Under the pieces are notes generated by a model. That model worked only from the letters and a program-made list of their open reading frames with translations, was not told the origin of the DNA and made no database searches. Of a stretch of DNA of 64,000 nt, positions 4,016-63,933 are shown one piece after another. A program made the position numbers and the translations under genes. Location of the stretch: contig CM000429.1 of the NCBI GenBank assembly GCA_000165345.1, positions 640,001 through 704,000 of the forward strand, given 5' to 3'. Every line of letters starts with the position of its first letter. The first letter of the stretch is position 1.

Positions 4016-4334
4016 TATTGTAAAAGTGTATTTACACTTATAAGGAATTAAAAATACTCAATTTTCTTTAAACTATTTAAAGTTTAGTAGTAAGTTTAAA
4101 ACATCCTAGATATGTACTTAGTAGATGATTTGATTAGCATAAACTTTCTTATCAATAAATTTCAGAATATCAAATCGCTTAGTACTTGAACCAAACTTTT
4201 TTTAATTTTATTTTTATTAATTTAATTATCTTATTCATTTACCCATGTCCACTTTTTTAGCGCCAAACGTGGTAACTTAAAACACCGGTATAGTAATAAT
4301 AAAAAGAAAAATAAAATTTTGGACGCAGTGAGGA

Positions 4335-5809: not shown

Positions 5810-6095
5810 GTTTTTTGACTTATATAGGTTTAATTATAGGCTTTAAATGAAAGCTATTTAATCATTAATTCTTCTTTCTATCTAAATTTATTTCTCTATT
5901 CATTTTTCCCCTATTGGATAGGGAATCCTTTTCCTATTGTATTTATTCCACAATGGTTAGGGCCTAGTCCAAATTTACCAATCACAAAAATTTAATACAC
6001 TTGGGCTTTCATTAACAAATCTGATATTTGTGAGCTTATTTGTTGATAAAGAACTTTAAAATAAATAAAAGTTAAAATAAATCACTGAAAAGAAT

Positions 6096-7933: not shown

Positions 7934-7944
7934 CCCGCCAAGGT
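7934..7944. promoter_or_regulatory. CCCGCCAAGGT 11-mer (E2F-like TTCCCGCCAA core), copy 1 upstream of RPL27; copy 2 at 9040..9050
   Basis: Identical GC-rich 11-mer on both sides of the RPL27 gene. A CACGTG box at about 7986 also lies in the RPL27 promoter. Confidence 0.35.
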
Positions 7945-8675: not shown

Positions 8676-9074
8676 ACTCTTTATAGACTAAGTCATCTTA
8701 ATATTTATTTTTGAAAAATATAATTGGTGTTTTTCTCAGCTAATTTGTCTGTTTGTTATTTTTTATTCTTATTTTATTTATTCAGAGCTACATTCCAAGA
8801 GAGTTTCCTCAACATTTTTATCATTTTTGAAAATACAAAATAGTCTGTAGATTATGCAATCCTCTTTGCGAATACAAGCTCTAGTCACTAAATATTAGAA
8901 ATGCTTCAAATCGCGAATAGATGTAATCATACTTTCACTAAAATCCTTCCAAATATTTAGATGCGGTACGTCAGTATTGCCAACTAACCCACAACTATTT
9001 AAACATTTTCTATATTCGAATTATATTAATAACAGAATTCCCGCCAAGGTACCTATGATGGCTTAATTTTTAAA

Positions 9075-9081
9075 GGCGCCA
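9075..9081. promoter_or_regulatory. GGCGCCA site upstream of the KDEL receptor; additional related GC-rich sites at 4256..4268 (TTTAGCGCCAAAC), 17385..17390, 21007..21013 and 61457..61468 (TGGCGCGCGCGC)
   Basis: Recurring GC-core motifs in AT-rich promoters. Confidence 0.35.
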
Positions 9082-10091: not shown

Positions 10092-10596
10092 TACTAATTC
10101 TTTTGAATTTCCACATATCTAATCATAATACTAGTCTCTAACATATAAGACTCATTTCTCTGGAGAAAGGTACATATATATTGGAGCAATTCATTATGGG
10201 ATTCACACTCCCTCTACCCAATATTATCAATAATACAGATAATCAACAATTAGTAGTAGCATTTCTAAATGGTCTACTAGCAGGAATATGTCATTAAATT
10301 TTCTAACAATCTATTAAATTATTGTGATTCTCTAAGATATTTGTGTTCCACTTATTTTATTAAAAACTAATATTTTTACTTGGAAGTATTTTCTTTTGCT
10401 ATTTCTTAACTCAGATATACCATTCCCTACGACTTGTGAAATATTTTACTAATACTTAACTAAAACTATACAAGATTTTTTCCCACTCAAGTTCTAATCA
10501 ATGCTTACTTTAAACACGTTTTTTTACACCTATATATACTTTAATATTTGTTTTCAATATTTTTATTTATTTGCATGCAAATTATATATCTAAAAA

Positions 10597-10604
10597 TGGC
10601 GCCA
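10597..10604. promoter_or_regulatory. TGGCGCCA E2F-like palindrome plus TTTGCATGCAAA (10570..10581) upstream of aldolase
   Basis: Both motifs lie 150-200 bp upstream of the aldolase ATG; another GCATGC is at about 10636. Confidence 0.45.
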
Positions 10605-11969: not shown

Positions 11970-14432
11970 CTAATATAGGCATAAGTGGCCGCATCCAGAA
12001 GGACAGATTGAATTTGAAAGGAACCACTCCTTTATATGTTTTGGATGTCCTCCATGTCTACAGCAAGGACATCCAACCCAGAGTCCTAGAACTGGTTCAC
12101 TGCAAACCACACAAATATTTTTGCTTGAATTACACTTCAAACATGAATGGAGATCTGTTCTTGGCTGGAAGTTCTTATCTAGTAGAGCTTTTTCTGACTT
12201 TATTTGTCTTTCACAATAAGATTTTGACTCGAAAAAAGAGTCCTTTTCATTTCCTTGTATAATACTTCCACAATAAAAGTTTGATTCTGATATATTTTCC
12301 CTCCCTAGATTTCTTATTTTCTTTATTTGGCTAGACTTAATCAGTTGTGAAGAGAGACAAAAAAGTCCAAGTTTTCTAAGGAGACTAATTAAGCTTAGAG
12401 TCAACTTTAACTGCAACAAAATAGTGGATTTTAAGATTGGTGAATCTGGAGGTGTTATGCAAGGTAATAAGTTATTTACAATTAAAAGACAAATTACAAC
12501 ATTGTTCATGTTGGATTGGAGATTTAGTTCATTCGAAATAGCTTCAATAGTTTCATTTAAAGAGCATTTTTTCTTAATTATATACATATATCTTTGTTCC
12601 TGAAGTATCTTAATGCCAAAAACTTCGAGAAAGAATTCAAAAATACACTCCACCTTTTCTTCTAAAGTCAATTTCTTCAAACTATCTCTATTAAATAAAA
12701 AACTTCTTGGGTCTTCTCCTCTGCCTGAAGAGATATAAACCATCCCATTCAGTTCGGAGATACTTTTGTCCTTATATACAATAATGCGTGGTCCCCATTT
12801 GACTTTCCAATTGTGAACCTTGGTAGAGCCTAAGCTTGAGAAGATTGAACTCCAGCTTGGAGTCAGTCCAAAAACACCAAGTCTGTGAATTATCCTTATC
12901 CAATCAGATTTCCTATTATTGAGTTCATGTATATGGAGCCTCCTTTCCAGCTCACACCTTGGATCTAATATTGATGCAAGGTCTCCAGGAAACTGAACAA
13001 GACCAATGTCAGGGAGAAATCCTGTGACTGAATAAAGAGAATACTTGAATAGCTCATTTCTTTCACTACAAAATTTGAAAATTGAGTCAGATTTATCCAT
13101 GAGTTCCCTTACTTTGGACTTGAAATCACTATTTTGTTTTTTGAGTTCTGTATTTGAATTGGAAGTTTCTCCAGAAACTGGATTATTGTAAATTTCAAAG
13201 TTTTTCTTAACGGTTTTCCTAAAGAACTCGTGTGATATATTGAAAACTACTCTTTGGGAAGCTTCAATAGAATCGTGGAAATTCGGAGTATAAAGACAAG
13301 AAGATGTTTTAATCTTCCTATTTGGTTTTGCTGCATCCTCCCATACAGATAGAATAAGTTTCTTATCAGCTCCACAGCTCATAATAGCATCAGATTCAAG
13401 CCAATCAAAGTCTCTAACTACATCAGTATGTCTAGAAAACCTTCGAATAGGCCGAATGGGATCCAGCAGGTCATAAACGTAGATTGCAGAGTCAATAGCT
13501 GAACAACAGAATGCAATTTGTGAAGGAAATCCTGGTCTCCACCTTGCCTTTCCTACAACAAACTGAGATTTAATGCTTGTTATTGAGGTAATTCCGTCCA
13601 TTTTACGTATATCCCATATTTGAACTCCGTTTCTACAACCAGTAGAAAATACATTATTATCATGTGGGTTCCAACGAATACAACTCAGACCTTTAGAGAG
13701 AGTTTGAGTTCTGTTGCACTGTGAGAACTTTGCTCTAAAGTCTAAGTGGGAAATAGTACCATCGTCAAAAGCTAGAAGAAGCTCATTATTTGCCCATATC
13801 CCATCAGATCCAAGATTCCTTGATTGCATATCTCGAATTGGGGACGAAGTTACGCAAGCTGACCAAATTGGAGTACACTGCTCTTCAGAAGAACTAATAT
13901 TAATCCCGGAACATTCTCTAAGCGCTTCACCATCCACTAATTTAATTTCCCCATTTTGAAAGCCTAATGCAAACAAGTTAGAGGAATCGCCCAGCCATTC
14001 CAAACAGCAACCTGCAACATTATGAGACCTAAATCTCGATGACATTTGCCAATGTCTGCCTTTGAGTCCTACATAAATATTTGCAGAACCGCTCAAAGTC
14101 AAACCTAGAAGAGTGTGAGAACCTCTAGACCACCCAATATCTACCAAATTAGTTCTGGAGATATTGTAAAAGCTTGAAATACGGTCAAAGTTTACAGTAC
14201 TAAGTTGTAAAAGAGATCTCCCTCCAACTGCAACACGATTTAGCATTGGTTCCAAGTTACTCATCCCTGAGTCATTTTCTCCTTCTTCCAAAAACTCTCC
14301 ATCAAGCCTTTGACTTAAGATCTCTGAAGACTTTGCCCAATGGCAGATCGAAAGACTACTTGGAATTGCAGAGAGTTGCTTAATGCAGTGGACTGCATGT
14401 TCGCTATTAGTTCCACCTTGATCATATTCCAT
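11970..14432 (-). CDS. WD40-repeat protein with a C-terminal GATOR2/SEA-type RING (WDR24/MIOS/WDR59-like)
   Basis: Beta-propeller repeats in the N-terminal half. C-terminal CxxC...CVVC...WVGCPCCRHGGHPKHIKEWF...CPSGCGHLCLY matches the MIOS/WDR24 C-terminal RING (C..C.HGGH..H...W....CP.GCGHLC). Confidence 0.6.
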   Translation of the reverse strand: MEYDQGGTNSEHAVHCIKQLSAIPSSLSICHWAKSSEILSQRLDGEFLEEGENDSGMSNLEPMLNRVAVGGRSLLQLSTVNFDRISSFYNISRTNLVDIGWSRGSHTLLGLTLSGSANIYVGLKGRHWQMSSRFRSHNVAGCCLEWLGDSSNLFALGFQNGEIKLVDGEALRECSGINISSSEEQCTPIWSACVTSSPIRDMQSRNLGSDGIWANNELLLAFDDGTISHLDFRAKFSQCNRTQTLSKGLSCIRWNPHDNNVFSTGCRNGVQIWDIRKMDGITSITSIKSQFVVGKARWRPGFPSQIAFCCSAIDSAIYVYDLLDPIRPIRRFSRHTDVVRDFDWLESDAIMSCGADKKLILSVWEDAAKPNRKIKTSSCLYTPNFHDSIEASQRVVFNISHEFFRKTVKKNFEIYNNPVSGETSNSNTELKKQNSDFKSKVRELMDKSDSIFKFCSERNELFKYSLYSVTGFLPDIGLVQFPGDLASILDPRCELERRLHIHELNNRKSDWIRIIHRLGVFGLTPSWSSIFSSLGSTKVHNWKVKWGPRIIVYKDKSISELNGMVYISSGRGEDPRSFLFNRDSLKKLTLEEKVECIFEFFLEVFGIKILQEQRYMYIIKKKCSLNETIEAISNELNLQSNMNNVVICLLIVNNLLPCITPPDSPILKSTILLQLKLTLSLISLLRKLGLFCLSSQLIKSSQIKKIRNLGRENISESNFYCGSIIQGNEKDSFFESKSYCERQIKSEKALLDKNFQPRTDLHSCLKCNSSKNICVVCSEPVLGLWVGCPCCRHGGHPKHIKEWFLSNSICPSGCGHLCLY

Positions 14433-15188
14433 TAATTCACTTTGTTGTCATTTTGCGGGACTATTACTTTTTTCTCATTTATTCCTCACTTTTCCCGTTT
14501 GTCAGCTTTAATATACTTCTGAATTCCCGCCATATTTAATTTATCCTCGTATTTTCGTAAAAAAAAATGCCAAATAAAATTTATGTGGAAATTATTTCAT
14601 AATCTTTCCACGCAGCGAAATCTCAAAGAAACTTTGTTTCCCGATTGATTTTGGTCGGAATTTTCCTTCTCCTTATTAAGGAACATTGTAATATTCAGAA
14701 ATAGTTTCTCTTCGTATTCTTGACTGTTTTAATCAATTTCTCTGCTGTGCATGCCCCCCATTATGCCTTTGGAAGCAACAGAATAGCTTGATATGGAGAA
14801 TTTTTCTCAAGCTTGATACATCCTTCCTAAAATAATACTTCCTTTCTGAACTAGTCCCAAATTTATTAATCTGGTGGATTTATGATTATATTTAACCTAA
14901 ATCTACCGAATATTGTTTTCTTTTATAAGATTTAAACAGCCCTATGGGAACATACCACTACACCTAGTAGTAATTATAACTTTATTTAATTTTGGAATTT
15001 TTGTGTAATTATTTTCTTTAAACAGATTATTTGCATTTATTCATAATTATCACAATTAACCAAAATAATGCCGGCAAAATAATTAAATATTAATATTCCC
15101 ACACACATTGAAATATGTTATATCAATAACTGGATTTCTATTTGAATTGTAAATACTTAATTTAGTGAAATCCTGAAAGCCTAATTTA

Positions 15189-16397
15189 ATGAGCTCAGAA
15201 ACTGCTTCAATTGAAATTGGAAAGTCTGCCATTGTAAGTTAACTTAATTCCAAATTAACATGGTAAATTATTTGAAATTGAAATTTAATTAAACTTTAAA
15301 TATACCATAATAGATTAACTCTGAAGCTATTGGGCATAAAATCAACTCTCTTGAAGATAAGTATTACAGTATAAAAAGGTACCATGAATCTCGTTTAAAA
15401 GTAAGTGCTAATTTATTTTTTCCAAGATATTATAAAATATACATAATAATTAGGACTTAAGCTCAGAAATCAAGGAGCTTTCAAAGCTTATAAACAAGGA
15501 ACAAAATGATATTCAAGAAATAAAATCTATAAAAGAAAAAAAGTTGAGAGAAGTCGAGTTGAAAATATCAAACCAAATTTTGGAATTACGGGAAATTAGA
15601 AATGAATCTGATACTTTAATTGAAAACAAAATTAAGGACCATTTACACAGGATGGAAACTTTAGAATTCAACAAATCATCAGAAATAGATATTCGAAGAG
15701 AAGATCAATTCGAGAAGATTTCAAGTTCATTAAATGACTTAACTCAAAAAGTTGAATATTTAAGGAAGAGAAGGTAAGTTAATTTTCCCAACTGGTTTGT
15801 TAGCATTCAAATCAGAATTACTTATGATATACTTTATTCTTGAACTTAAAATTTGTCCTTCCCAAACTCTTCTTCATCTAGAAAGAATATTCTTACATCA
15901 TTTAAAAAAGAACTTGCAAATGGTAAGTTTACAACTAATAATATGAAGATGGTATTTCGTTGGTATAATGTTTATTTGTAATATATGGATGTAGCAATTC
16001 TAAATCCATTTTCATGTAAATACTATCTATTTCTTGATTAATTATTTGGACAAATTTACTCTAATTATTTTCCTCCTTTAACAATAACAATAGAATCGGA
16101 GAATATATTAAAATCCATTCAAGAAGAATCTAACAGAAGGGAATACTCTGTCCAAAGCATGAAACAGTAAGTTTTAGAGTTTACTAAGATTTTAATGTAA
16201 TAATCAAAATATTGTCTTTATTTGAAAGACTATTAGACGACACAATGAATCACTTTCTGACGGAAATGGCAGCCTCAAGGACTAGTAGATTGGAAATGGA
16301 TAAGCAAATTATTGACCAATTAGAGCTTGCTTGTCAAGATACTGAAAATAAGTTAGCTAGGATGATAAGCTCAAATGAAAATCAAAAAGACAACTAA
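15189..16397 (+). CDS. Coiled-coil protein, multi-exon. Exons approx 15189..15233, 15314..15400, 15454..15773, 15882..15922, (16095..16167), 16230..16397.
   Basis: ATG at 15189, then consecutive GTAAGT donors and polypyrimidine-AG acceptors. Track ORF 15544..15777 sits inside exon 3 and ends at a TAA within the donor AG|GTAAGT; track ORF 16212..16397 sits inside the last exon. Reading frame is continuous through exon 5 if AGAAGGGAATAC is read correctly. A shorter isoform that skips exon 5 (acceptor ...ctattag|ACGAC) is also in frame. No homology recognised. Confidence 0.5.
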
Positions 16398-16412
16398 ATT
16401 ATTTCTCCTCTC

Positions 16413-17165
16413 TTACTGTGCAGATTCAATGATTTTCGCAAATGTTGGCTTCAATGAAGCTCCTCCAACAAGGAAACCATCAATATCGGCGCATTTGATT
16501 AATTCATTACAATTATCAGGAGTGACCGATCCTCCATAAATTATTCTTAAATTGGAAGATACCTGGGGATTATACATCCTTGTAACATATTCTCTAATAA
16601 ATGCATGAGCCTCTTGAGCTTGCCCAGGTGTTGCTACTACTCCTGTTCCGATAGCCCAAATTGGCTCGTAAGCTATTACTAAGTTAGACAAATCACTCAC
16701 ATCCTTTAAAGCTTCCGTTAACTGCTTCTGTATGACATCATTGGTCTTTCCTGTTTCTCTCTCACTTAATGACTCTCCAATACAAAGAACAATCTTCAGG
16801 CCATTCTCCAAACCCTTCTTTACCTTATTATTTACGATTTGATCAGTTTCTGAATAGTATTGTCTTCTTTCAGAATGGCCTACTAAAGAACAATCAACAT
16901 CCATATCTTTAAGCATTTCACAAGAAACTTCTCCCGTAAATGCTCCGTTTCCAGTACAAGAAATGTTCTGTGATCCAATCTTGAATACTCCTGGATGATC
17001 ATTACCGAAAAACTCTTTGACCAATGAAATATGTAGTGAAGTTGGGAATACGTAAACCTCTGAATTACTTGATTCCACTTGTTTGAAAGAATCAATCAGA
17101 GTCTTTAGAGATTCTTTTGTGCCATTGCACTTGAAGTTACCACCCACAAAGTACTTTCTAGACAT
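16413..17165 (-). CDS. TPI: Triosephosphate isomerase
   Basis: AYEPIWAIGTG, GGNFK and IIYGGSV motifs; 250 aa. Confidence 0.95.
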   Translation of the reverse strand: MSRKYFVGGNFKCNGTKESLKTLIDSFKQVESSNSEVYVFPTSLHISLVKEFFGNDHPGVFKIGSQNISCTGNGAFTGEVSCEMLKDMDVDCSLVGHSERRQYYSETDQIVNNKVKKGLENGLKIVLCIGESLSERETGKTNDVIQKQLTEALKDVSDLSNLVIAYEPIWAIGTGVVATPGQAQEAHAFIREYVTRMYNPQVSSNLRIIYGGSVTPDNCNELIKCADIDGFLVGGASLKPTFAKIIESAQ

Positions 17166-17972
17166 TCTATCTGAAGTTATTAATACTTGAACAATGTTAA
17201 GTTACTTGTACTAATTTCTTTTTATCTGAGATTTTAAAAATTACAATTTTTACCAATCTCACATATAACTTACAATATACCTAATTTAATTCCTAAATAT
17301 CCGCCCTATATTATTCTTCAATTTGAAATTCAATACCTCTTATATTTTTGTACTGGTCTCGAGCCCACATAATATCTTTAAATAGGCGCCTTTTTAGATC
17401 TCTCAGTTTAACATACTATGACCAAAAAATTAGGCATGTAAACATGCTGAATAAAGCCCGCCACTTTTCAATTTTAATATTTTAAGCTTTAAAAGAATTT
17501 ACTATGGTTGATACAAAGGTGATAAACTCAACATGAATTATCTTATTTCATTATTATATTCAACCCTTTTATCCTCGATAGTTTTAATAAGTTCCCTTAG
17601 GACTATCTGGAACAATATAGTTATGTAAGATCGATGCAAAAAAAAACTATTCTTGCAAACTCTTAATAAAGCTTAAATATTTAGCACACAACAGTCTTCT
17701 ATTTTCGTTATTTATACTTCTTTTTTACCCCAGCTCTGTTACTCGCCACCATTATTACCCCCTATCCTTCTTAACTAAACTTCAAATATAAACTTCTTTC
17801 TATCTACACATCTAATTAAACATTCACCCTCAAAACATTGTCATAGTCCCCGAAAAATTAATAATAATTCACTGTACTCTTTTACATTCACCAGTTTTTC
17901 CCCCAAGTAACTCCTTTGTTATAACTCCATTCTATCATTATTATTTGACATAAAGATATAGATTCAATATTG

Positions 17973-17984
17973 TTTGGCGCCAAA
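17973..17984. promoter_or_regulatory. Palindromic E2F-like site TTTGGCGCCAAA about 65 bp upstream of the CDF transporter ATG
   Basis: Perfect 12-bp GC-core palindrome in an otherwise AT-rich intergenic region. E2F-type GGCGCC motifs are known to be over-represented upstream of Cryptosporidium genes. Confidence 0.5.
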
Positions 17985-18045
17985 TTCTCGTAAATGCCAT
18001 TAAAAAGCAAAGTAAATAAAAAGAAGAGGGAATTAAATTATACCC

Positions 18046-19425
18046 ATGATGAAAGACTCAGGTCTGGAAAAGCCATTACTTAATGGGAATGGATTTAAAA
18101 TATTTGCAAGCACAGAGAGTGTTCAGAAGAGGTTAATATATGCAATCTTTTTCTGTCTAGTCTTTACATTGATAGAGGTTGTTGTGGGTATATTATCAAA
18201 CTCACTAGCACTAATATCAGATGCATCTCACCTCATTTCAGATATATGTAGCTATTTCATTTCTCTGCTTGGTATCCACCTTTCCAAAAGAAAGGCCACA
18301 AACACAATGTCATTTGGTTATAACAGAGCTGAAATATTAGGGGCTTTGTTAAGCATTCTACTAATATGGTTTATGACAATCATGCTTGTCTATGAGGCTA
18401 TTCAGAGAATGTTATATCCTGTGAATGTGGATGGGTTTTCTATGTTTATTACCGCTATTTTTGGTACTTTGTCCAACTTATTTATTAGCTTTGTGTTATC
18501 TGTTCACAATCATGGAATAGGTTCAATTGGAGTAGATTGTAGTCAACACAATCATTCACATGAACATATGCATGAACACGACTGTAAGCAAGCTCAAACT
18601 CATTTTCAGGATGATTCACTGTATTGCAAAGATCAACAACTAGCAGAAAATCAAGAACAAATCGGAGGAATTAACACTACTTTACTTGAATACCACCATA
18701 GAAGCCAAATGAGAACTAAAGATTTAGATCATGAACTTAATAATTATACTAATTTAATGAACTCTCCAGTTATAAGAAGAGTCAATTCTGGTTTAAAAGA
18801 GTGTTCAGGACGTCAAAATGACTATTCTCATCTCCATAGTAGTAATCACTATACAAGTAAACATTCCTCTGAACAAGAAAGCTTAGCGCTTAAGTCTGCT
18901 TATATCCATGTTTTAGGGGATATTTTACAGAACATCGGAGTAATGATTGCTGGATTACTTATTTTGTACAATCCAGCATGGACAATCGCCGATCCTCTAT
19001 GTACTATTCTATTCTCCTTCTTTGTCCTCGCAACAACCATCAAAATCCTAAAAGATTCCGCCAATGTTCTAATGGAAGGGACCCCTATAGGAATTGATTG
19101 TGAATCCATTCAAAACGACTTTCTCAAGCTTTCTTCAGTGCTTGAAGTTCACGATCTACATGTTTGGTCTGTATCTGTTGGAGTTCCTGCATTATCTTGT
19201 CATATTGTCGTAGCATCAGAAGATAATGCTAGATTTACATTAAGATATGCAACGGATCTCTGTCAAAAAAAATATGGAATATTTCACACCACCATTCAAA
19301 TTGACTATTCTCCAAATAAAGCCACTTGTGAAACAATACATCATCAAAAATGTTTAGTTGGCTCTAATAACCAAAATAAAAGTGAAATTCACCAAATAAT
19401 TCATCCCGTTGACTATTCTGCTTAG
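18046..19425 (+). CDS. Cation diffusion facilitator (ZnT/Zrc1-type zinc transporter) with a His-rich loop
   Basis: TM helices with the HxxxD motif (SHLISDICS), a histidine-rich loop HNHGIGS...HNHSHEHMHEHD, and a C-terminal CDF cytoplasmic domain (HDLHVWS). Confidence 0.85.
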   Translation: MMKDSGLEKPLLNGNGFKIFASTESVQKRLIYAIFFCLVFTLIEVVVGILSNSLALISDASHLISDICSYFISLLGIHLSKRKATNTMSFGYNRAEILGALLSILLIWFMTIMLVYEAIQRMLYPVNVDGFSMFITAIFGTLSNLFISFVLSVHNHGIGSIGVDCSQHNHSHEHMHEHDCKQAQTHFQDDSLYCKDQQLAENQEQIGGINTTLLEYHHRSQMRTKDLDHELNNYTNLMNSPVIRRVNSGLKECSGRQNDYSHLHSSNHYTSKHSSEQESLALKSAYIHVLGDILQNIGVMIAGLLILYNPAWTIADPLCTILFSFFVLATTIKILKDSANVLMEGTPIGIDCESIQNDFLKLSSVLEVHDLHVWSVSVGVPALSCHIVVASEDNARFTLRYATDLCQKKYGIFHTTIQIDYSPNKATCETIHHQKCLVGSNNQNKSEIHQIIHPVDYSA

Positions 19426-20936: not shown

Positions 20937-21182
20937 TTTATTTTTATTATTCAAATTTAATTAATGTTTTTTCAAAATACTCGTCACCAAGATTAACCGC
21001 CAAAAGTTGGCGCTCAGTTTTTTGCTGACATTAAGAGATACAAATAAATTCGAATAAAAAAAGATTTATAAGAACTCCGAGAAAGAAAAGAAAGGAGTAT
21101 TTTGAATTATTTTTCATTAGATGAGTGCAAAATACTGACCTGTGACTTTGAGTTTTGGAATTTGGAGTGAAACTCTTAAGAG

Positions 21183-32730: not shown

Positions 32731-34997
32731 TCATCCCTTCAGATGATTATGATAGAAATCTTCATCAAATAAATTCATCTTTGGAATCTTATTATTATAA
32801 TTTGCAATAGACATTGCAGAAACACTTAATTGAAGATTTGTATTAGAATCAAACTCCAAAAGGATATCAGCTGGTTCCAATTGAATATCTTTCTCAGCAA
32901 GTTCTTGACATAATCTAGATATATCGTCAATTGTGATAATCCTAGAGGATATAATTGAATCTTTATACTGAATTCCATCACAGAAATCTCTTTTAATTTC
33001 TCGACACTCTTCAGGATCTTGAATTTGGCAAGGATCTAAAACATTTGTAATTCTTAGAACTTTTGAATCCAAATTACGTGTACCTAAAGAATAAGTATCT
33101 TCTAGAGTGAATAGTAGTTGTAATGCAGTTTCTTGTCCTAAATAAAAAGCATTATCTTTGGTAATTGCTCCATTTATGGTTGTATGGGAATTCAAATTAT
33201 TAATAGGATTTAATACTGAATTGTAAGGTGATTGAATATTTGTTCCCGATCCTCCAACTGCTGTTGAAGAAGATGATGATTGTAGTGCTTGAGAATAGTC
33301 ATTTGGTCTAGAGACTTTAATTTTGGATCCCATACAAGCAAAACCATCTAATTGAAGAGCTTTTTCAGTTTCTTCTACAGTTCTAAATTCAACAAAACCA
33401 TAATTACCTTTTTTTTGAGCAAACCAAACACACAATATAGGATTTTCATTGGGATTTAAACATAATCCTCTCAATGCCATTTCCTGCCAGACAATTTGTT
33501 GAAAGCTTGATTCAGTAAGACCTAGATTTATAGGTAGATTACCAAAATAAAGCCTTCTAAACCTTCTTGTATTATTCATTGTAGCTGGATCCATTGATGC
33601 TGTACTTCCAGTTTTTGCTACCCATTGGAATCCATCATAGAAGACGGGAGTGGGCTCTTTACCTTCGCTTTGAGCAAGTTTTTGAAATCCTCCAGCCTTT
33701 TTAATACATCTAAAAAGAAAGGTTTAAATGTTAAAATATTCAATAATGAATTAATAAAAAAAAAACAAACTTACTTTGCTTGCATTCTTCTTCTTCTTCT
33801 TTCCCTCTCTCTAGATCTTTCTCTTTCTTCAGAAAATGATCTATTAACATAATTTTCATGTCTGTCTCGGTACCTATTTAAATATCTGATATTATTCCAA
33901 TTTCTGTCTCCATGATTATAACTATCTCTTTCATAGTCGTTGTAGTGACTATTTCCATGATCATAGTTGTATCCATGACTTGGTCTATTTCCATATTCAC
34001 TGTTTTTGTTAATAGCATAATCATTATCGTAGCCTTGGTCATAGTAATTCTCATTTCTGTAATATTGTGATCTATTTCGAGAAGTTTTTGTATTCGAATT
34101 AGAGATATATTCCTCATCAGAACAAGAATATGATCTGGTTCTGGGGTTGGATTTGGATTTGTATTTATTTTGAGACTCAGATATATGCTTTGATCTTGAA
34201 GAATGCCTAGATCTTGAGACACTTCTACTTTTGCTTCTGTTACATTCTTTATCAAAATCTCTATCTCTTTGCCTAACTTTGTCTCTAATTTTATTTCTTC
34301 CATCATTTTTATTTTCGCTTTTATTCGTTTTAATACTTGGACTTCTACTTCTACTAGTACTTCTACTTGAATTTATGGGTCCAGGGACAGATTTAGAGTG
34401 AGAATAAGTTGTAATATTATTTAACTCATAATCTTCATCACCAACCCTTTGAGTTGTGGTAATTCTAGAATGATTTTTAACATTACTTCTAAGGTATTTA
34501 AATTCGGATCTTTCATGAGCTCTTCCTCTATTCTCTATTCTGTCTCCAGAGCTTGAAACGGATCTTAACTTTTGTGATCTTCTCGAGTGAGAAAAGTCTC
34601 TCTCATCTTGGCGTTGGTGGTTATAATGATGACGATGATAATAGCCATCGTTAAATTCTTCCGGACTGGATTCATAGTTTCTTTTTACTCTTTCTTTAGA
34701 CCTTCCTCTTTCTATTGATTTTCTTTGAACTTGTCTTGACCCTGCCCTTGGACATGACCTTGAATTCGATCTTGAATTTGATAGTGACATAGATTCAGAT
34801 CGATACCTATTTTCTGAGCTAGATTTTGACATTGATCTTGAACTTGACTTAAATTTTTGCCTTGTGTTCGTTTTGGCTGAAGAATATCTTCTTCTATCAT
34901 AGGAAGAGTTTGAGCTTGATCTAGATGCTTTAGAAGAATTAAAACCTCCTCCTTTGAAGGAAGATTCCCCTCTTCTTCGATGATCTCTGCTGCTCAT
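32731..34997 (-). CDS. Splicing factor U2AF large subunit (U2AF65), 2 exons approx 33775..34997 and 32731..33709
   Basis: N-terminal RS/SR-rich domain; exon 1 ends GCAAA|GTAAGT, so the track stop lies inside the donor. A 65-nt intron with acceptor ctttttag joins in frame to a ULM-like FYDGFQW motif. RRMs follow: RRLYFGNLP...NYGFVEFR...KVSRP resembles U2AF65 RRM1. Confidence 0.85.
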
Positions 34998-35259
34998 TTC
35001 AATTCTAACTTAATCTTTTCAAGCTTTAAGAAATTGAAGGAAAAAAATCTTGGAGAAAAAATTTGATGATGCTTACCACTTAAGTATATATGGATGGTAC
35101 AATTGGACTTATTCTCTTAATTAATTAATTTCAAGAAACTTTAATTTCAGCCTCTTTCCATATCATTTAAATAAAAAATAACAATAATTCCAATGCTTGC
35201 TATTAATTTTTACCACGCTCAAAAATATTTGGGCATATTAAAAAAAAATATAGAAAAAG

Positions 35260-35330
35260 TGCACTAACGGGGAATCGAACCCCGGTCGAAACGATGGCAA
35301 CGTTTCATCATACCACTAGACCATTAGTGC
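35260..35330 (-). tRNA. tRNA-Gly (anticodon GCC)
   Basis: Reverse complement GCACTAATGGTCTAGTGGTATGATGAAACGTTGCCATCGTTTCGACCGGGGTTCGATTCCCCGTTAGTGC(A). It has a 7-bp acceptor stem, anticodon stem AAACG/CGTTT, loop TTGCCAT and T-arm CGGGG-TTCGATT-CCCCG. It is followed on its strand by CTTTTT, a Pol III terminator. Ends may be off by 1 nt. Confidence 0.9.
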
Positions 35331-35663
35331 TCACGTGACATTTTGTCGAATGAGATAATTAATATTGTATTAGGTTTTTAAGGAGTATAAAGTGTAGAGT
35401 GAAGATTGTTGTGATAACGATAAATAATTAGTGGGAAATTAGGGGAGGTAAAATAAAAATAAAAAAAAATATATTTAGAGCAAGGAGAAAATATAATTGA
35501 ATAAAATAATTAGTATTTGAAAAAAGGTTGTAATTTTTACCTTATTTGTATTAAATTCTTGATTTTGATAATTTATTTGGAGAACAAAATCCAATAAATT
35601 AATGTGGAAATGTGTATTTGTTTATATTACTCAAAAAGTGAATTTTCATAGGTTAGTTTAAGA

Positions 35664-40039: not shown

Positions 40040-40408
40040 TTTTTCTTATAAATTAATTTAATTACACATTATTGTGAGGTATTTTTATGTGGCGCAATTT
40101 TGCCCAACACCGTTACTAAAAACTGTCAAACACGTAATGCATGCAGTGACGGTATTAAAAAAAAAATTCATGAGGACAATAATAATAAAAAATTACTCAC
40201 AAAAATTTTGATTAATATAAGAATAATTTTTTTTAATAAAAAAATTAATTACTTCATTTAAAAAAAATTATTTTGAATTTTTATCTGGAAAAAAAATATT
40301 TACATATAATTAATGAACAATAACTAAATAAATATAAATTTATGACAGAAATCTCAAATAATTATTTCAAGCAATAATTAATTCAATTTTGATTTTACAA
40401 GTCGAAAA

Positions 40409-40426
40409 AATTGCATGCATGCAATT
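40409..40426. promoter_or_regulatory. Palindrome AATTGCATGCATGCAATT in the divergent promoter between the 845-aa gene and the WS/DGAT-like gene
   Basis: TGCATGCA core, an ApiAP2-type G-box-like motif described in Cryptosporidium promoters. A near-identical copy is at 59627..59643. Confidence 0.4.
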
Positions 40427-42900: not shown

Positions 42901-42984
42901 AAATTAAATGAAAGTTAATGAGAATTAAACTGAGAAGAAGCCAAGAAATTAGTAAGTTGCAAGTTAAAATCAAAAAATTGGATT

Positions 42985-43001
42985 TGGCGCCGGCGCCAGC
43001 T
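42985..43001. promoter_or_regulatory. Tandem GGCGCC sites (TTTGGCGCCGGCGCCAGC) about 80 bp upstream of SAS10/UTP3
   Basis: Doubled GC-rich palindrome core in an AT-rich spacer. Confidence 0.45.
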
Positions 43002-43079
43002 CATTTGGAGGTCAAATTAAATGGCAATTTTTGACATAAGAGTACGAGAGGAATTATTTTTTTTTAAATAAAAAAAAAT

Positions 43080-45544: not shown

Positions 45545-45554
45545 TTGGCGCCAA
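45545..45554. promoter_or_regulatory. TTGGCGCCAA palindrome upstream of UMP-CMP kinase
   Basis: Same motif class, about 410 bp upstream of the ATG. Confidence 0.35.
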
Positions 45555-48118: not shown

Positions 48119-49610
48119 ATTTCAAATTCGCCACTTCCCTGATTTTCATTACTTTTTTTTTTCTTGTATTCCTGGGTTATCCAATCTATTTAGATCTTAA
48201 TTCAAACATTTCTTTTTCCTTTTTCGGATATATATTAAATATTATTTCGACTAATTATTAATAAATTTTACCTGTAATAATTGTCAATATTTACACGTAG
48301 TGCATTACTTGTCATTACAAATTGTCCACACCGAAGATTTTCAAGTAAAGGTTTTTTTCCATAAATTTTATAATTCATTTTTTTTCATTGATCAAGTGTA
48401 AATAATTAATATTCCATTCCTATTTTTATTAAATTTACATCTGATTTGAATAAAGAAAATGATTAATTAATTTTTTTTTTAAATTCTTAATTACTTACGT
48501 GTATAATATTAATATAATACTTGTCTTTTTTTTTATATTGTATTTCCATTTCTATTTGAATTTGGTTTTAAAAAAATTTGGTCATATATTAACATACTCT
48601 TAATACTATAATATTTTTCTTCAAATAGAATAATTAATATTTATTCTCTCCTGAAGTTTTTTTTTCTGATTTTACTCCACGTAATTTTATCCACATTAAA
48701 ATTTTTATTGCATGTAAACACCGGTACTGGGGAAAAAATAATTAGAATATGCATGCAATTCTGTGTGTAAACAATAAAATAAAAAAAATTAGTTAGAATT
48801 ATTTAAAAAAAATAAAAGTTTAGTGAAATTTCAGCCTATGATGTATTGATAATAAGTGATATAAAGATGACTTAATTAATGATTCACTGTTTAAAGAGAA
48901 TCAGCTTATAATAATAAAAAAAAAAGAGGTGAAGGTAATACATGGAGAAAAGTTGAGAAGAGTATAGTATTGCCAATATTAAAATTCTAAATATAAGAAT
49001 AATAAACAATAGGAAAGAGAAGTTTATAAAAGAAAGAATGTAAGTAATTAAGTTAATATGATAAGTTATTTCGGAATATATTTATTTTTAATAAGCATTA
49101 TGAAGAGTTAAAAATATTAAAAAAAAAAAAATCAACAAAGTTCACATGAAGAGGATAGAAAAGTTTCTAATAAAAAGGGGATTTAAAGTGGGAGTATTAT
49201 TTAGAGAATATAATGCGAAGATAATAATAAAATGCCGAATAAATATAAAAGAAAGTTTCAAAATAATTACTATTTAAGAAGTGGCACAAACATGGAATAA
49301 GAATAGGAATATCTAAGCACACACTCAGAAGAAAAGATAATATCTATAAAAAAGTTTGTGTGTTTCAATGAATGGCTATAAACATCTTTATTATAAGAAT
49401 GATGCTTTTTAAAAAGCCGATATTTGCAAAACTAGTTTAATTAAGCAAACAAGTTTGGGCGGCAAGGCAAAAATGCGTCTCTAAAAAGCAAATTTAAATG
49501 TTGAAAACAAATAAAATTAGTAAAAAAAACAATAAGAGTACTAAATAAATTAGAGATTTGGATTTGGGAAAGAAGTACAAGTGTGAGCAGATTTCACTGC
49601 GATCTCTAAG

Positions 49611-59031: not shown

Positions 59032-59626
59032 TTTTTTTTTCTCCTTCTTTCCTTATCTGAATATCTTTAAATATTCTGTTCTACATATTACTTATTTTAT
59101 TGCCAAAATATTACTATACAAAAATATATTATTTTTTCTCTTTTATTTTCTTGACCTTTTTTTCTTTGTTATTTTCTTGTGGATCTGCATACCTGCATTA
59201 CCCCCCATCTATATATACGGTCTGTCGTTACAGGTTTAAAATTCATTAAATATATATATATTTTTTTGTAACTCTTATAATAATGAATTTTAATATTAAT
59301 AATTCAAATTTTAACTCGATTTTTTCTTTTTTTTTATTGTTTATTCATTTTTTACCTTTTTAATTATTTTTTGTATTTTTGTCAACATAAAATTAATACC
59401 ATTATTTTTTTTATCCACATGAATTTGAAGATGTAAAAAAGAAATTAAAAATTGACTGATAAAAAGTCATTAAAACTTAAATAAGTAAAAATAATTAGCA
59501 ATCCATTAGTAACCATACAATTTAAGTAAATTGAAATTTATCACCAATATTAATTTTTTTTTTGACATACATTCTATCTATATGCCGGGAATTTATAGTC
59601 ATCCACATGAAATTAGTTTCAACGCA

Positions 59627-59643
59627 AATTGCATGCATGCAAT
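59627..59643. promoter_or_regulatory. Palindrome ATTGCATGCATGCAAT, second copy
   Basis: 16-bp perfect palindrome about 600 bp upstream of the PH-repeat gene start and about 90 bp past the stop of the 456-aa gene. Confidence 0.35.
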
Positions 59644-59722
59644 AATGACGTGTCAAAACAATAAAAATCAGAAGATATGATAGTAATAGAAATAATTTAA
59701 ATTAAGCTAAATCTAAAATATT

Positions 59723-61093
59723 TTAATTCAAAATTGCAGACTTAAAGCTATCAGTGATGTTTTGAATCAGATTTGTGGAATCTTGAGTGAAATTAATACA
59801 AGGTTTTAGAATATTCTTTGTAATTTCAGCCGATCTGGGTGATTTTCTATCGTTTGAAGAGTATCTTTTAATTGTAAAATTGCGACCTAATTCAGGTTTA
59901 TGTTGTAATTGGTTTTTTGAAAATGTATTATTTATGTTAGGAAGATTGTCTTTTGAATATTTGGTTGTGTTGAGTGGGGTAGAACCAGAAGATAGTTGAT
60001 TAGCATAGTTTAGATTATTATTAAACTGTGGATATTTCCCTTTATTAGCATGATTAGTAAAATTAAAATTTGGAGAATGCGGTGGGAATATAGTTAAAAC
60101 TGGATTTGAATTAACAGGAGATTGAATAGTAGAAAATAATACGGGATTTGCATGGGTAAAATCAATAATATTGTTCCCAATTACCACATTATTCCCTATT
60201 TGTTTATGAAAGTGATTAGAACTTCCATAACTTTGTTGAGTAAAGTCTCTTGATATTTGCTTTTGTTTGGTGAATTCTGAGATATTAGAAGTCTTTCTTT
60301 CTAAAGATGGGTTACTAATTGGTCCATTATTGAATGATGCATTTTGCTTTCTAGTATAGAATTGCTTCTTTTCTGGAATCAGTTCAAAATAAAGTTCTTC
60401 TCTATTTAGAGTTAATCCATTATTCAATTGTTTTCCCAATGTATTACTTGAAATATTCTCTTTATCATTAACTTCAGGCTTATTTAATGAACTAGATGGT
60501 GCTACCAGATTATCTTTAGTAACATTTATTTCTATTTTTTGATTAGAAATTACTGTTTTCTGTTTCTCATTACCTTTGAAATTCTTGACTTTGTAAAAGG
60601 AATAGTAAAATATTTTATCTTTTTTTGATTCAATAATATTCACTACAGAATTTATTCCATGAAAATATCTAATAAGGTTTTGTTGGAATTCCAACATAGT
60701 ATTCTCATCCAATGATAATAGCTCAGATTCATTTTCTAATTCAGTGCTTTCACAAGATCTAGATTTATCCATAATTGCTTCTTGCCTATTATTACTTTGT
60801 TTAAAGTTGGAAATTAACTTATCCATTGCAAATCTTTGTTTTTTATATTCAATCAATTTCATAGTGTGAAATAACATACAAATGGATTGAGTTTGCCTTG
60901 CTAATGCATAAAATCCATCCAACATATATTTATTGTATTTCTTTTTTTGTAAAGATAGTTCCCTTTCAAGCTGACTTTTATACTTCCAATTGTAAAGGCA
61001 GTTCCTAATTTGTCTTTCTTTTATTTGTTTTAGTAGCATTTCTGTTCCATATATGGATACAATAAGATCTTCAATACAAAACTCAGAATCCAT
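59723..61093 (-). CDS. Hypothetical protein (456 aa), N/S-rich C-terminal half
   Basis: Long ORF with ATG at 61091..61093. No recognisable domain. Confidence 0.4.
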   Translation of the reverse strand: MDSEFCIEDLIVSIYGTEMLLKQIKERQIRNCLYNWKYKSQLERELSLQKKKYNKYMLDGFYALARQTQSICMLFHTMKLIEYKKQRFAMDKLISNFKQSNNRQEAIMDKSRSCESTELENESELLSLDENTMLEFQQNLIRYFHGINSVVNIIESKKDKIFYYSFYKVKNFKGNEKQKTVISNQKIEINVTKDNLVAPSSSLNKPEVNDKENISSNTLGKQLNNGLTLNREELYFELIPEKKQFYTRKQNASFNNGPISNPSLERKTSNISEFTKQKQISRDFTQQSYGSSNHFHKQIGNNVVIGNNIIDFTHANPVLFSTIQSPVNSNPVLTIFPPHSPNFNFTNHANKGKYPQFNNNLNYANQLSSGSTPLNTTKYSKDNLPNINNTFSKNQLQHKPELGRNFTIKRYSSNDRKSPRSAEITKNILKPCINFTQDSTNLIQNITDSFKSAILN

Positions 61094-61482
61094 TTTTTTT
61101 TGTTTATTATATTTCCTTCCTTTTTATTTACTCTAAATAATTATTCCAAAATAAAATTTCTTGAGGTAAATAAACAATTCACACGGAATATCCTTTTTTT
61201 AAAATAATAATAATAATATTGACTGTAATAACTCTGCCAACTCTTATAATTAACCTATAAAAATGCTTCGTTTCCCTTTGTATTGCTTCTCTGAACTCAG
61301 TATATGAAGATCTGTAACCCAAGTTCACTAAATAAAAAAGATTTCCTTCTTCCTACTATTCCCTCTCTATTATATTTCATTTACAAAAAAAAAAAAGGAA
61401 AAAAACATGCCAAAGTGTGGGGTACCGTAAAAAAAACATGCGAAGAACATGCAAGCTGGCGCGCGCGCTAAAATGTATAAAA

Positions 61483-63922: not shown

Positions 63923-63933
63923 TTTGGCGCCAA
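63923..63933. promoter_or_regulatory. TTTGGCGCCAA palindrome upstream of the last (minus-strand) gene
   Basis: Same motif class, about 200 bp upstream of the gene start. Confidence 0.4.

What the first reader, a model, noticed from the sequence alone, without database searches (positions are those of the whole stretch)
17973..17984. GGCGCC-core (E2F-like) palindromes recur upstream of at least nine genes in the window
TTTGGCGCCAAA-type sites occur 60-400 bp upstream of the CDF transporter, aldolase (10597..10604), KDEL receptor (9075..9081), SAS10 (tandem, 42985..43001), UMP-CMP kinase (45545..45554), the last gene (63923..63933), the SRPK/DnaJ promoter (4256..4268), the TPI/CDF region (17385..17390) and the UTP20-like gene (21007..21013). 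In a roughly 70% AT sequence, such GC palindromes are strongly non-random and fit a shared E2F/DP-type regulon.
Basis: partly seen in the sequence, partly recalled or inferred. Interest (0 to 1): 0.5.

Follow-up and report, generated by a model that had tools for sequence, protein, structure and literature searches.

The report
Known E2F-like promoter motif of Cryptosporidium
The recurring GGCGCC palindromes are real, far above chance and conserved upstream of the same genes across Cryptosporidium species, but they are the E2F-like promoter motif already published as the commonest upstream motif in this parasite.

Summary
The window is Cryptosporidium parvum chromosome 1, 29.7% GC. It holds 8 exact GGCGCC (0.36 expected), and all 8 lie outside coding sequence, 70-419 bp upstream of a start codon. 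An unbiased 6-mer scan of the intergenic DNA ranks TGGCGC and GGCGCC first. Syntenic loci from C. meleagridis, C. ubiquitum, C. felis, C. bovis, C. ryanae and C. muris carry such sites in the same promoter-bearing intergenic regions. In C. muris there are 16 observed against 1.0 expected in spacers, and 0 in 34.5 kb of coding sequence.

This is the published C. parvum "E2F" motif (5'-TGGCGCCA-3'; Bankier 2003, Mullapudi 2007, Oberstaller 2013), and it is the top motif in sporozoite open chromatin (Xiao 2025). Its frequency (12 of 17 promoter-bearing spacers here) and the unrelated genes it precedes fit a near-general promoter element better than a specific regulon. Binding by E2F/DP remains inferred, not shown. 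Novelty: already known. The cross-genus footprint is supporting evidence, not a discovery.

The parts
17973..17984 (.). Perfect 12-bp palindrome TTTGGCGCCAAA, a double TTTSSCGC E2F consensus, about 70 bp upstream of the CDF transporter ATG (18046)
   Evidence: GGCGCC sits at -71 in C. meleagridis and -72 in C. felis.
17385..17390 (.). GGCGCC 220 bp upstream of the TPI ATG (17165, minus strand), in the divergent TPI/CDF spacer
   Evidence: It sits at the same distance (-222) in C. meleagridis and C. felis, and a GCGCC lies at -120 in C. muris.
17301..17305 (.). CCGCC half-site 136 bp upstream of TPI
17457..17462 (.). CCCGCC (GGCGGG-type E2F variant) in the TPI/CDF spacer
   Evidence: Conserved in C. 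meleagridis (CCCGCC) and as CCGCC in C. felis.
10597..10604 (.). TGGCGCCA about 178 bp upstream of the aldolase ATG (10776)
   Evidence: GGCGCC sits at -175 in C. meleagridis, -171 in C. felis and -301 in C. bovis, and GGCGGG at -119 in C. muris. The aldolase upstream region was in the glycolysis set of Mullapudi 2007, which shares a GGCG-core motif.
9075..9081 (.). GGCGCCA 162 bp upstream of the KDEL-receptor ATG (9237)
   Evidence: GGCGCC is retained in C. meleagridis and C. bovis, and C. felis has a GCGCC half-site.
9038..9047 (+). TTCCCGCCAA, a classical asymmetric E2F-type site 35 bp 5' of the 9075 site
   Evidence: CCGCCAA is kept in the same orientation in C. meleagridis, C. bovis and C. 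muris; C. felis has CCCGCCTAAG.
42983..42998 (.). Tandem TTTGGCGCCGGCGCCA, 82-97 bp upstream of the SAS10/UTP3 ATG (43080)
   Evidence: The tandem is kept in C. ubiquitum. C. felis has GGCGCTGGCGCC, C. ryanae GGCGCCAGCGC, and C. muris GGCGC plus GGCGG.
45545..45554 (.). TTGGCGCCAA 419 bp upstream of the UMP-CMP kinase ATG (45966)
   Evidence: GGCGCC sits at -430 in C. ubiquitum and -312 in C. felis. C. ryanae has a GGCGGG/CCCGCC pair and C. muris a CCGCC. No hidden upstream exon was found.
63923..63933 (.). TTTGGCGCCAA 218 bp upstream of the ATG (63708) of the minus-strand gene 61483-63708. It could also serve a gene beyond the window end.
4256..4267 (.). TTTAGCGCCAAA, a half-site with one mismatch to the 12-mer palindrome, in the divergent SRPK/DnaJ spacer
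   Evidence: The orthologous spacer has a full GGCGCC in C. felis and C. muris.
20997..21013 (.). Paired half-sites CCGCCAAAAGTTGGCGC in the divergent deacetylase/UTP20 spacer, 174-186 bp upstream of the UTP20 ATG
   Evidence: The pair, with 12-13 bp spacing, is kept in C. meleagridis, C. felis (CCGCC..GGCGCC) and C. muris (CCCGCC..CCGCC).
7934..7939 (.). CCCGCC in the divergent CGI-121/RPL27e spacer
   Evidence: An E2F-like word is present in this spacer in all five species.
14524..14533 (.). TTCCCGCCAT 94 bp upstream of the WD40-RING gene ATG (14432, minus strand)
   Evidence: The site is identical in C. meleagridis. C. felis has GGCGCC, C. muris GGCGC, and C. bovis has none.
40091..40095 (.). 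GGCGC half-site (TGGCGCAA) 52 bp upstream of the GCP-family gene ATG (40039, minus strand)
   Evidence: It is kept in C. ubiquitum and C. ryanae. C. felis has GGCGCC and C. muris GGCGG.
49458..49462 (.). GGCGG 153 bp upstream of the HAT-repeat gene ATG (49611). This is the weakest assignment.
   Evidence: It is not conserved in C. ubiquitum or C. muris.
61458..61468 (.). GGCGCGCGCGC (overlapping SGCGCS cores), 365 bp upstream of the ATG of gene 59723-61093 (minus strand)

Best explanation
The GGCGCC-core palindromes, with their GGCGC, GGCGG and CCCGCC variants, are double-stranded-DNA promoter elements of Cryptosporidium parvum. They are the published 'E2F' upstream motif. The most likely mechanism is that each site is bound by a heterodimer of one of the parasite's E2F proteins (cgd1_1560, cgd6_1430) and one of its DP proteins (cgd7_3650, cgd8_1850). 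Each winged-helix domain would contact one half of the symmetric GCGC core, and the T-rich and A-rich flanks would add affinity. Binding would mark or open the promoter and drive transcription of the adjacent gene, or of both genes in divergent spacers. Because the sites precede most genes whatever their function, the element behaves as a general promoter element of the compact genome and not as a cell-cycle regulon.

Shown here: the sites exist, are highly non-random, are confined to promoter-bearing intergenic DNA, fit the E2F consensus, and are kept by selection across the genus. Taken from the literature: the genome encodes E2F and DP proteins, and the motif dominates open chromatin. Inferred: that E2F/DP is the binder, and that binding activates transcription.
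For: - **Enrichment.** There are 8 GGCGCC against 0.36 expected. TGGCGC (15 against 0.44) and GGCGCC (8 against 0.11) are the two most over-represented of 2003 6-mers in the window's intergenic DNA. TTTSSCGC has 6 matches against 0.78 expected, and 5 of them are TTTGGCGC.
- **Location.** 8 of 8 GGCGCC are intergenic. E2F-like 5-mers show 27 observed against 2.7 expected in intergenic DNA, and 5 against 5.8 in coding sequence. No site falls in the 8 convergent 3'-3' spacers, while 7 of 8 divergent and 5 of 9 tandem spacers have at least one. All sites lie 52-419 bp upstream of an ATG.
- **Specificity.** Among all 16 all-G/C 5-mers, GCGCC/GGCGC is 57 intergenic to 5 coding across seven loci, CCGCC/GGCGG is 30 to 7, and the controls GGCCC (7 to 32) and GCCCC (6 to 23) go the other way.
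- **Flanks.** T at -1 and A at +1 occur in 11 of 16 half-sites, which gives TGGCGCCA.
- **Selection.** The same promoter spacers carry E2F-like sites in C. meleagridis, C. ubiquitum, C. felis, C. bovis, C. ryanae and C. muris, although the flanking sequence is largely unalignable at the C. muris distance. In C. muris the spacers hold 16 observed against 1.03 expected, and 34.5 kb of coding sequence holds 0 against 4.4 expected. Presence or absence agrees between C. parvum and C. muris in 19 of 21 spacers (Fisher P = 3e-4).
- **A DNA-level element.** The core is palindromic, and asymmetric variants occur in either orientation relative to the gene.
- **Literature.** E2F 5'-TGGCGCCA-3' is the most over-represented upstream motif in C. 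parvum (PMC3734150). A GGCG-core motif lies upstream of the glycolytic genes, including aldolase cgd1_3020 and TPI cgd1_3040 of this window (PMC1779779). Two E2F and two DP genes are retained, uniquely among Apicomplexa (PMC12246861). [quoted passage not shown] Protein-binding microarrays found no ApiAP2 domain that binds this motif (PMC4117751).
Against: - No direct evidence (EMSA, protein-binding microarray, ChIP or CUT&RUN) that Cryptosporidium E2F/DP binds these sites was found in the papers searched. The 2025 review says most regulatory components lack functional validation.
- pRb and most E2F partner proteins are absent from C. parvum (PMC3734150), so regulation cannot follow the classical model.
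- Published E2F expression profiles do not track those of some motif-bearing gene sets, for example ribosomal proteins.
- Half-sites such as GGCGC or GGCGG alone are short, and some (49458, for example) are not conserved and may be chance.
- Coding regions were defined from ORFs and from other records' gene calls, not from transcripts. Transcription start sites are unknown here, so some sites could lie in 5' UTRs.
Confidence: 0.8

Rival explanations
1. The element is a real, selected promoter element, but it is bound by a factor other than E2F/DP. Candidates are an uncharacterised zinc-finger, Myb/SANT or ApiAP2 protein, or a general-transcription-machinery component that recognises the GC-rich palindrome in AT-rich DNA.
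For: Binding by E2F/DP has never been shown directly. The motif precedes most genes and not a cell-cycle set. pRb and most E2F partners are missing. E2F expression does not correlate with some motif-bearing clusters.
Against: The sites fit the E2F consensus TTTSSCGC and its symmetric SGCGCS core closely, and they also include the classical asymmetric TTCCCGCCAA form. According to the papers read, Cryptosporidium is the only apicomplexan genus that retains E2F/DP, and an equivalent dominant motif is not reported for the others. The ApiAP2 domains tested on protein-binding microarrays bind TGCAT, CACACA and G-box, not this motif.
Confidence: 0.12
2. The sites act mainly as chromatin or architectural signals, for example nucleosome-excluding boundaries, delimiters of transcription units or polycistrons, or replication-origin marks. 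They would not be classical activator sites for the adjacent gene.
For: The motif sits in open-chromatin peaks at the 5' ends of both mono- and polycistronic units and in inter-ORF spacers of polycistrons. Some tandem spacers lack any site in all species examined, such as DnaJ to 14-3-3, as expected if sites mark unit boundaries. More than half of the ATAC peaks are annotated as bidirectional promoters.
Against: This is not exclusive of E2F/DP binding, because a bound factor would create the open chromatin. A 6-bp GC core is too short to exclude nucleosomes on its own. Distances to the ATG are conserved among the closer species: -70, -71 and -72 for CDF, and -220, -222 and -222 for TPI. That fits a promoter-proximal role.
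Confidence: 0.06
3. The pattern is a compositional or mutational by-product with no function, for example CpG-containing words surviving in spacers, or chance clustering of GC words in AT-rich DNA.
For: The words are short, and the coding-versus-intergenic comparison rests on ORF-based annotation.
Against: Intergenic DNA is less GC-rich than coding DNA (25.9% against 30.7%), yet it holds nearly all copies. Dinucleotide-preserving shuffles and first-order Markov models give 0.1-0.4 expected against 8 observed. Other all-G/C words, with or without CpG, do not share the bias. Sites persist in orthologous spacers out to C. muris while the surrounding sequence has diverged beyond alignment.
Confidence: 0.01

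Closest known systems
Published Cryptosporidium parvum 'E2F' upstream motif family (Bankier 2003; Mullapudi 2007 PMC1779779; Oberstaller 2013 PMC3734150, motifs 3 and 4; Xiao 2025 bioRxiv 10.1101/2025.01.17.633476)
   Same: Same organism, same sequence (5'-TGGCGCCA-3', core [C/G]GCGC[G/C], variant GGCGGG) and same upstream location. Two of the window's genes, aldolase cgd1_3020 and TPI cgd1_3040, were in the 2007 glycolysis set that shares a GGCG-core motif. It is reported as the most abundant upstream motif and the top motif in open chromatin.
   Different: Nothing essential. The only addition here is a locus-level footprint across seven Cryptosporidium species out to C. muris, with depletion of the words from coding sequence. 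The 2007 paper compared only C. hominis, whose spacers are 95% identical.
Canonical E2F/DP binding sites of animals and plants (TTTSSCGC; symmetric CGCGCG-type core contacted by E2F and DP winged-helix domains; Zheng et al. 1999 as cited in PMC3734150)
   Same: The consensus fits (TTTGGCGC, TTCCCGCC). The core is palindromic with T-rich and A-rich flanks, the sites are promoter-proximal and work in either orientation, and paired sites occur.
   Different: The targets are not a cell-cycle or DNA-synthesis set but most genes of a compact genome. pRb-family repressors and most partner proteins are absent from C. parvum. The GGCGCC core is strongly preferred over the CGCGCG and GGCGGG forms common elsewhere. 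Binding is not demonstrated.
ApiAP2 motif TGCATGCA ('AP2_1') of apicomplexan promoters
   Same: It is also a short GC-containing palindrome confined to intergenic DNA in this window: 7 copies, all intergenic, 0.46 expected. It sometimes lies beside an E2F-like site (10572 against 10598, 40138 against 40091).
   Different: The sequence and the binding protein family differ (AP2 domains, shown by protein-binding microarray). It is found across Apicomplexa, whereas the E2F-like motif is linked to the genus that retains E2F/DP.

Membership tests
E2F/DP transcription-factor binding site | Sequence matches the E2F consensus (TTTSSCGC; symmetric SGCGCS core with T/A flanks) | tested here: met
   TTTSSCGC has 6 matches against 0.78 expected, and 5 are TTTGGCGC. 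The 12-mer TTTGGCGCCAAA is at 17973. T at -1 and A at +1 occur in 11 of 16 half-sites. TTCCCGCCAA is at 9038.
E2F/DP transcription-factor binding site | Located in promoter or upstream regions, not in coding or 3' regions | tested here: met
   8 of 8 GGCGCC are intergenic. No site falls in the 8 convergent spacers. All sites lie 52-419 bp upstream of an ATG.
E2F/DP transcription-factor binding site | Maintained by selection (conserved in orthologous promoters) | tested here: met
   The same spacers carry sites in six other Cryptosporidium species. In C. muris the spacers hold 16 observed against 1.03 expected, and coding sequence holds 0.
E2F/DP transcription-factor binding site | Cognate E2F and DP proteins are encoded by the organism | not testable with these tools
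   The genes are not in the window, and no Pfam E2F_TDP hit appeared among the window proteins scanned (gene tables). The literature lists cgd1_1560, cgd6_1430 (E2F) and cgd7_3650, cgd8_1850 (DP) (PMC12246861).
E2F/DP transcription-factor binding site | Physical binding of E2F/DP to the site (EMSA, protein-binding microarray, ChIP) | not testable with these tools
   No such experiment for Cryptosporidium was found in the papers searched. The only experimental support found is ATAC-seq motif enrichment, and that is indirect.
Classical E2F regulon (cell-cycle and DNA-synthesis genes under pRb control) | Target genes form a coherent cell-cycle or S-phase set with shared expression | tested here: not met
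   The targets include aldolase, TPI, the KDEL receptor, a CDF transporter, SAS10/UTP3, UTP20, RPL27e and UMP-CMP kinase. 12 of 17 promoter-bearing spacers carry a site. cgd1_3050 and cgd1_3070 are in different expression clusters. pRb is absent according to PMC3734150.
Published C. parvum E2F-like upstream motif family (Oberstaller 2013, motifs 3 and 4) | Core [C/G]GCGC[G/C] or GGCGGG, over-represented in C. parvum upstream regions | tested here: met
   The window matches C. parvum records exactly over 4753 bp and carries a protein 100% identical to an NCBI C. parvum protein. The cores are found and enriched.

The most novel reading that the evidence does not exclude
The E2F-like element may be the principal promoter-defining signal of the whole genus and not a regulon marker. 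In that reading it is kept at nearly every promoter-bearing spacer from intestinal species (C. parvum) to gastric species (C. muris), often at conserved distances and in conserved pair architectures. Examples are the tandem GGCGCCGGCGCC at SAS10 and CCGCC-N7-GGCGC at UTP20, both small-subunit processome genes. It would also be purged from coding sequence, and spacers that lack it (for example DnaJ to 14-3-3 in all five species) would mark co-transcribed gene pairs. The genus-wide footprint and the coding depletion are not reported in the papers I read, but they extend published ideas only incrementally.
Probability: 0.4. Interest if true: 0.35.

Novelty: already known. Interest (0 to 1): 0.15.

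Why it matters
Cryptosporidium is a major cause of childhood diarrhoea, and its gene regulation is poorly understood. According to the papers read, it is the only apicomplexan genus that kept E2F/DP factors, and this motif is the most common signal in its promoters. The window gives a clean, locus-level illustration that the motif is under selection across the genus. That supports choosing these sites (the CDF, aldolase and SAS10 promoters) for reporter mutagenesis or ChIP. It does not open a new question. The open question, whether E2F/DP actually binds the motif and what binding does, is already recognised in the field.

Tried and rejected
- **TGACAT as a companion element.** A T-run followed by TGACAT(A/T)AAGA lies near three E2F-like sites and is conserved in alignments A1 and A3. 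TGACAT itself is not enriched in intergenic DNA (8 of 34 copies), so I did not pursue it as a motif.
- **Hidden upstream exon for UMP-CMP kinase.** This might have explained the distant (-419) site. tblastn with the longer C. muris and C. ryanae proteins found no N-terminal homology upstream of 45966.
- **Link between site-free tandem spacers and published polycistrons.** No supplementary tables are held for Xiao 2025.
- **Bankier 2003 (PMC403770).** The paper is not held, so its priority is cited only through PMC3734150 and PMC12246861.
- **Direct binding evidence.** Literature searches for ChIP, EMSA or protein-binding microarray data on Cryptosporidium E2F found none. PMC11337648 only uses the E2F gene's promoter as a tool. 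PMC5146892 held no relevant text.
- **RNA-gene explanation.** tRNA and Rfam scans found only one tRNA-Gly, unrelated to the sites.
- **C. felis word counts.** These loci are 42-45% GC with very GC-rich coding stretches, so the counts were set aside as uninformative.
- **DNA-contact residues of the E2F and DP proteins.** I did not check them. The genes lie outside the window, and a search seeded with a non-Cryptosporidium E2F would return mainly animal proteins.

Full report
**What the window is.** The window is 29.7% GC and densely packed with mostly intron-free ORFs. The triosephosphate isomerase ORF is encoded identically in two NCBI assemblies (GCA_015245375.1 CP044422.1 and GCA_031892065.1 CP029780.1). 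The 4753 bp fetched from each matches window 14413-19165 exactly, spacers included. The SAS10-like protein is 100% identical to an NCBI "nuclear protein [Cryptosporidium parvum]". The aldolase is 99% identical to that of C. meleagridis. Published tables give aldolase as cgd1_3020, TPI as cgd1_3040, the CDF transporter as cgd1_3050 and the DRIM/UTP20 gene as cgd1_3070. The window is therefore C. parvum chromosome 1.

**Checking the observation.** TTTGGCGCCAAA occupies 17973-17984, about 70 bp upstream of the ATG at 18046. GGCGCC occurs 8 times (9075, 10598, 17385, 17976, 42986, 42992, 45547, 63926). Dinucleotide-preserving shuffles give 0.36 expected and never more than 2. All 8 copies lie outside coding sequence, which covers 77-80% of the window. 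The binomial P is 3e-6, or about 1.5e-5 if the tandem pair counts once.

The SRPK/DnaJ site (TTTAGCGCCAAA, 4256-4267) and the UTP20 site (TTGGCGC, 21007-21013) are half-sites.
- TTCCCGCCAA at 9038
- CCCGCC at 7934 and 17457
- TTCCCGCCAT at 14524
- CCGCC at 17301 and 20997
- GGCGC at 40091
- GGCGG at 49458
- GGCGCGCGCGC at 61458

**Is it more than composition?** Intergenic DNA is less GC-rich than coding DNA (25.9% against 30.7%), so the bias runs against composition.
- An unbiased scan of all 2003 reverse-complement-collapsed 6-mers, against a first-order Markov model of the intergenic DNA itself, puts TGGCGC/GCGCCA first (15 observed, 0.44 expected) and GGCGCC second (8 against 0.11). The next non-homopolymer words are TGCATG/GCATGC and CACACA, the published ApiAP2 motifs.
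- Among the 16 possible all-G/C 5-mers summed over seven low-GC loci, GCGCC/GGCGC is 57 intergenic to 5 coding and CCGCC/GGCGG is 30 to 7. The controls GGCCC (7 to 32), GCCCC (6 to 23) and CGGCC (4 to 19) are mostly coding.
- The canonical E2F consensus TTTSSCGC has 6 matches against 0.78 expected, and 5 are TTTGGCGC.
- The flanks prefer T at -1 and A at +1, which gives TGGCGCCA.

**Where the sites sit.** Sorting spacers by the orientation of the flanking genes gives this pattern.

| Spacer type | Spacers with at least one E2F-like word |
|---|---|
| Divergent | 7 of 8 |
| Tandem | 5 of 9 |
| Convergent (3'-3') | 0 of 8 |

The convergent spacers total only 1.5 kb, so that contrast has little power on its own. 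All 20 site clusters lie 52-419 bp upstream of a start codon. The median is 170 bp, against 268 bp for intergenic positions in general. Asymmetric variants occur in either orientation relative to the gene, as expected for a duplex-DNA element bound by a dimer.

**Phylogenetic footprint.** Using the aldolase and SAS10 orthologues, I fetched the syntenic 21-22 kb from six species:
- C. meleagridis, C. felis, C. bovis and C. muris around aldolase
- C. ubiquitum, C. felis, C. ryanae and C. muris around SAS10

Gene order is identical in all of them. E2F-like words recur in the same promoter-bearing spacers:
- **SRPK/DnaJ:** full GGCGCC in C. felis and C. muris.
- **CGI-121/RPL27e:** a site in all five species.
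- **KDEL receptor:** CCGCCAA in C. meleagridis, C. bovis and C. muris (CCCGCCTAAG in C. felis), with a nearby GGCGCC in C. meleagridis and C. bovis and a GCGCC half-site in C. felis.
- **Aldolase:** GGCGCC or GGCGGG in all five.
- **WD40-RING:** four of five.
- **TPI:** -220, -222 and -222 in C. parvum, C. meleagridis and C. felis.
- **CDF:** -70, -71 and -72 in the same three species.
- **Deacetylase/UTP20:** paired sites 12-13 bp apart in four species.
- **GCP:** all five.
- **SAS10:** the tandem is kept or slightly degraded in all five.
- **UMP-CMP kinase:** all five.

Alignments show the core as an island. At the C. muris distance the flanks no longer align. In C. muris the spacers hold 16 E2F-like 5-mers against 1.03 expected, and 34.5 kb of coding sequence holds none against 4.4 expected. 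Across all species the coding total is 12 against about 30 expected. This suggests spurious sites are avoided in genes, although the species are not independent samples. Presence or absence agrees between C. parvum and C. muris in 19 of 21 spacers (Fisher P = 3e-4). That figure is partly confounded by spacer type.

**What is already known.** This motif is well documented.
- Oberstaller et al. 2013 report E2F (5'-TGGCGCCA-3'; core [C/G]GCGC[G/C], variant GGCGGG) as the most over-represented upstream motif in C. parvum. They credit Bankier et al. 2003 with first noticing it and note its link to glycolysis and DNA-replication genes.
- Mullapudi et al. 2007 found a GGCG-core motif upstream of all the glycolytic genes they examined. 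The paper's gene table (Table 1) includes the aldolase and TPI of this window.
- Oberstaller et al. 2014 state that the motif lies upstream of 161 of 200 co-expression clusters. None of the ApiAP2 domains they tested accounts for it.
- Xiao et al. 2025 find it to be the single most prominent motif in sporozoite ATAC-seq peaks, and common in the spacers of polycistrons.
- The 2025 review lists two E2F and two DP genes, says the genus is the only apicomplexan one to retain them, and stresses that most such components lack experimental validation.
- My searches found no ChIP, EMSA or protein-binding microarray data for Cryptosporidium E2F/DP.

**Mechanism.** The best-supported reading is that these are E2F/DP heterodimer sites acting as promoter elements.
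- Shown here: non-randomness, confinement to promoter-bearing spacers, fit to the consensus, and purifying selection across the genus.
- Taken from the literature: the factors exist, and the motif marks open chromatin.
- Inferred: that E2F/DP is the binder, and that binding activates transcription.

Most promoter-bearing spacers in the window have a site. The genes are functionally unrelated. Two of them fall in different published expression clusters. pRb is absent. The element therefore behaves as a near-general promoter signal.

The rivals are an unidentified binder (about 0.12), a mainly architectural role (about 0.06) and a compositional artefact. The last is refuted.

**Verdict.** The finding is already known. 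The cross-genus footprint and the coding depletion corroborate it and may be modestly new in detail, but they do not change the picture. Interest is low.

Noticed in passing
window 10572-10579, 40138-40145, 40412-40423, 48750-48757, 59630-59641: TGCATGCA, the published ApiAP2 'AP2_1' motif, occurs 7 times against 0.46 expected, and every copy is intergenic. Two pairs overlap in tandem (40412/40416 and 59630/59634). The copy at 10572 lies 26 bp 5' of the aldolase GGCGCC, and the copy at 40138 lies 47 bp from the GGCGC at 40091.
   Followed up: partly
window 35259-35330 (minus strand): A tRNA-Gly(GCC) gene (ARAGORN, and Rfam RF00005 at 61.9 bits) lies in the divergent spacer 34998-35663. This is the one divergent spacer of the window with no E2F-like word.
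   Followed up: partly
window 17946-17958, 21026-21040, 43032-43044: A T-run followed by TGACAT(A/T)AAGA lies next to the E2F-like sites of the CDF, UTP20 and SAS10 promoters. It is conserved in the C. parvum, C. ubiquitum and C. felis alignments. It may be a transcription-start or initiator-like element, but TGACAT alone is not enriched in intergenic DNA (8 of 34 copies).
   Followed up: partly
window 5810-6095 (also 1480-1759 and 59032-59722): These tandem spacers have no E2F-like word. The DnaJ to 14-3-3 spacer lacks one in all five species examined. These gene pairs might be co-transcribed, in line with the polycistrons reported for C. parvum, but no transcript data could be consulted.
   Followed up: no
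window 61458-61468: GGCGCGCGCGC is an alternating GC run containing overlapping SGCGCS cores. It lies only 15-25 bp beyond the stop codon of gene 61483-63708 (minus strand) and 365 bp upstream of the next gene's ATG, which is an unusual position compared with the other sites.
   Followed up: no
coding sequence of the window and of loci L006, L008, L010, L011, L013, L014: E2F-like 5-mers (GGCGC, GCGCC, GGCGG, CCGCC) appear depleted in coding sequence. C. muris has 0 observed against 4.4 expected, and all loci together have 12 against about 30. This suggests selection against spurious sites inside genes. The species are not independent, and the model is only first-order.
   Followed up: partly
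L012:16440-20264 (C. felis, HAT-repeat gene) and L007 and L012 overall: The C. felis loci are 42-45% GC, against 28-34% in the other species. The HAT-repeat gene has extremely GC-rich, repeat-like coding stretches and is split into two gene calls in that record.
   Followed up: no
window 32731-33594 and 33771-34997 (minus strand): These two adjacent ORFs (an RRM-containing ORF and a Ser/Arg-rich ORF) correspond to a single 774-residue gene call in C. ubiquitum. In the window they are probably one gene with a 176-bp intron.
   Followed up: no
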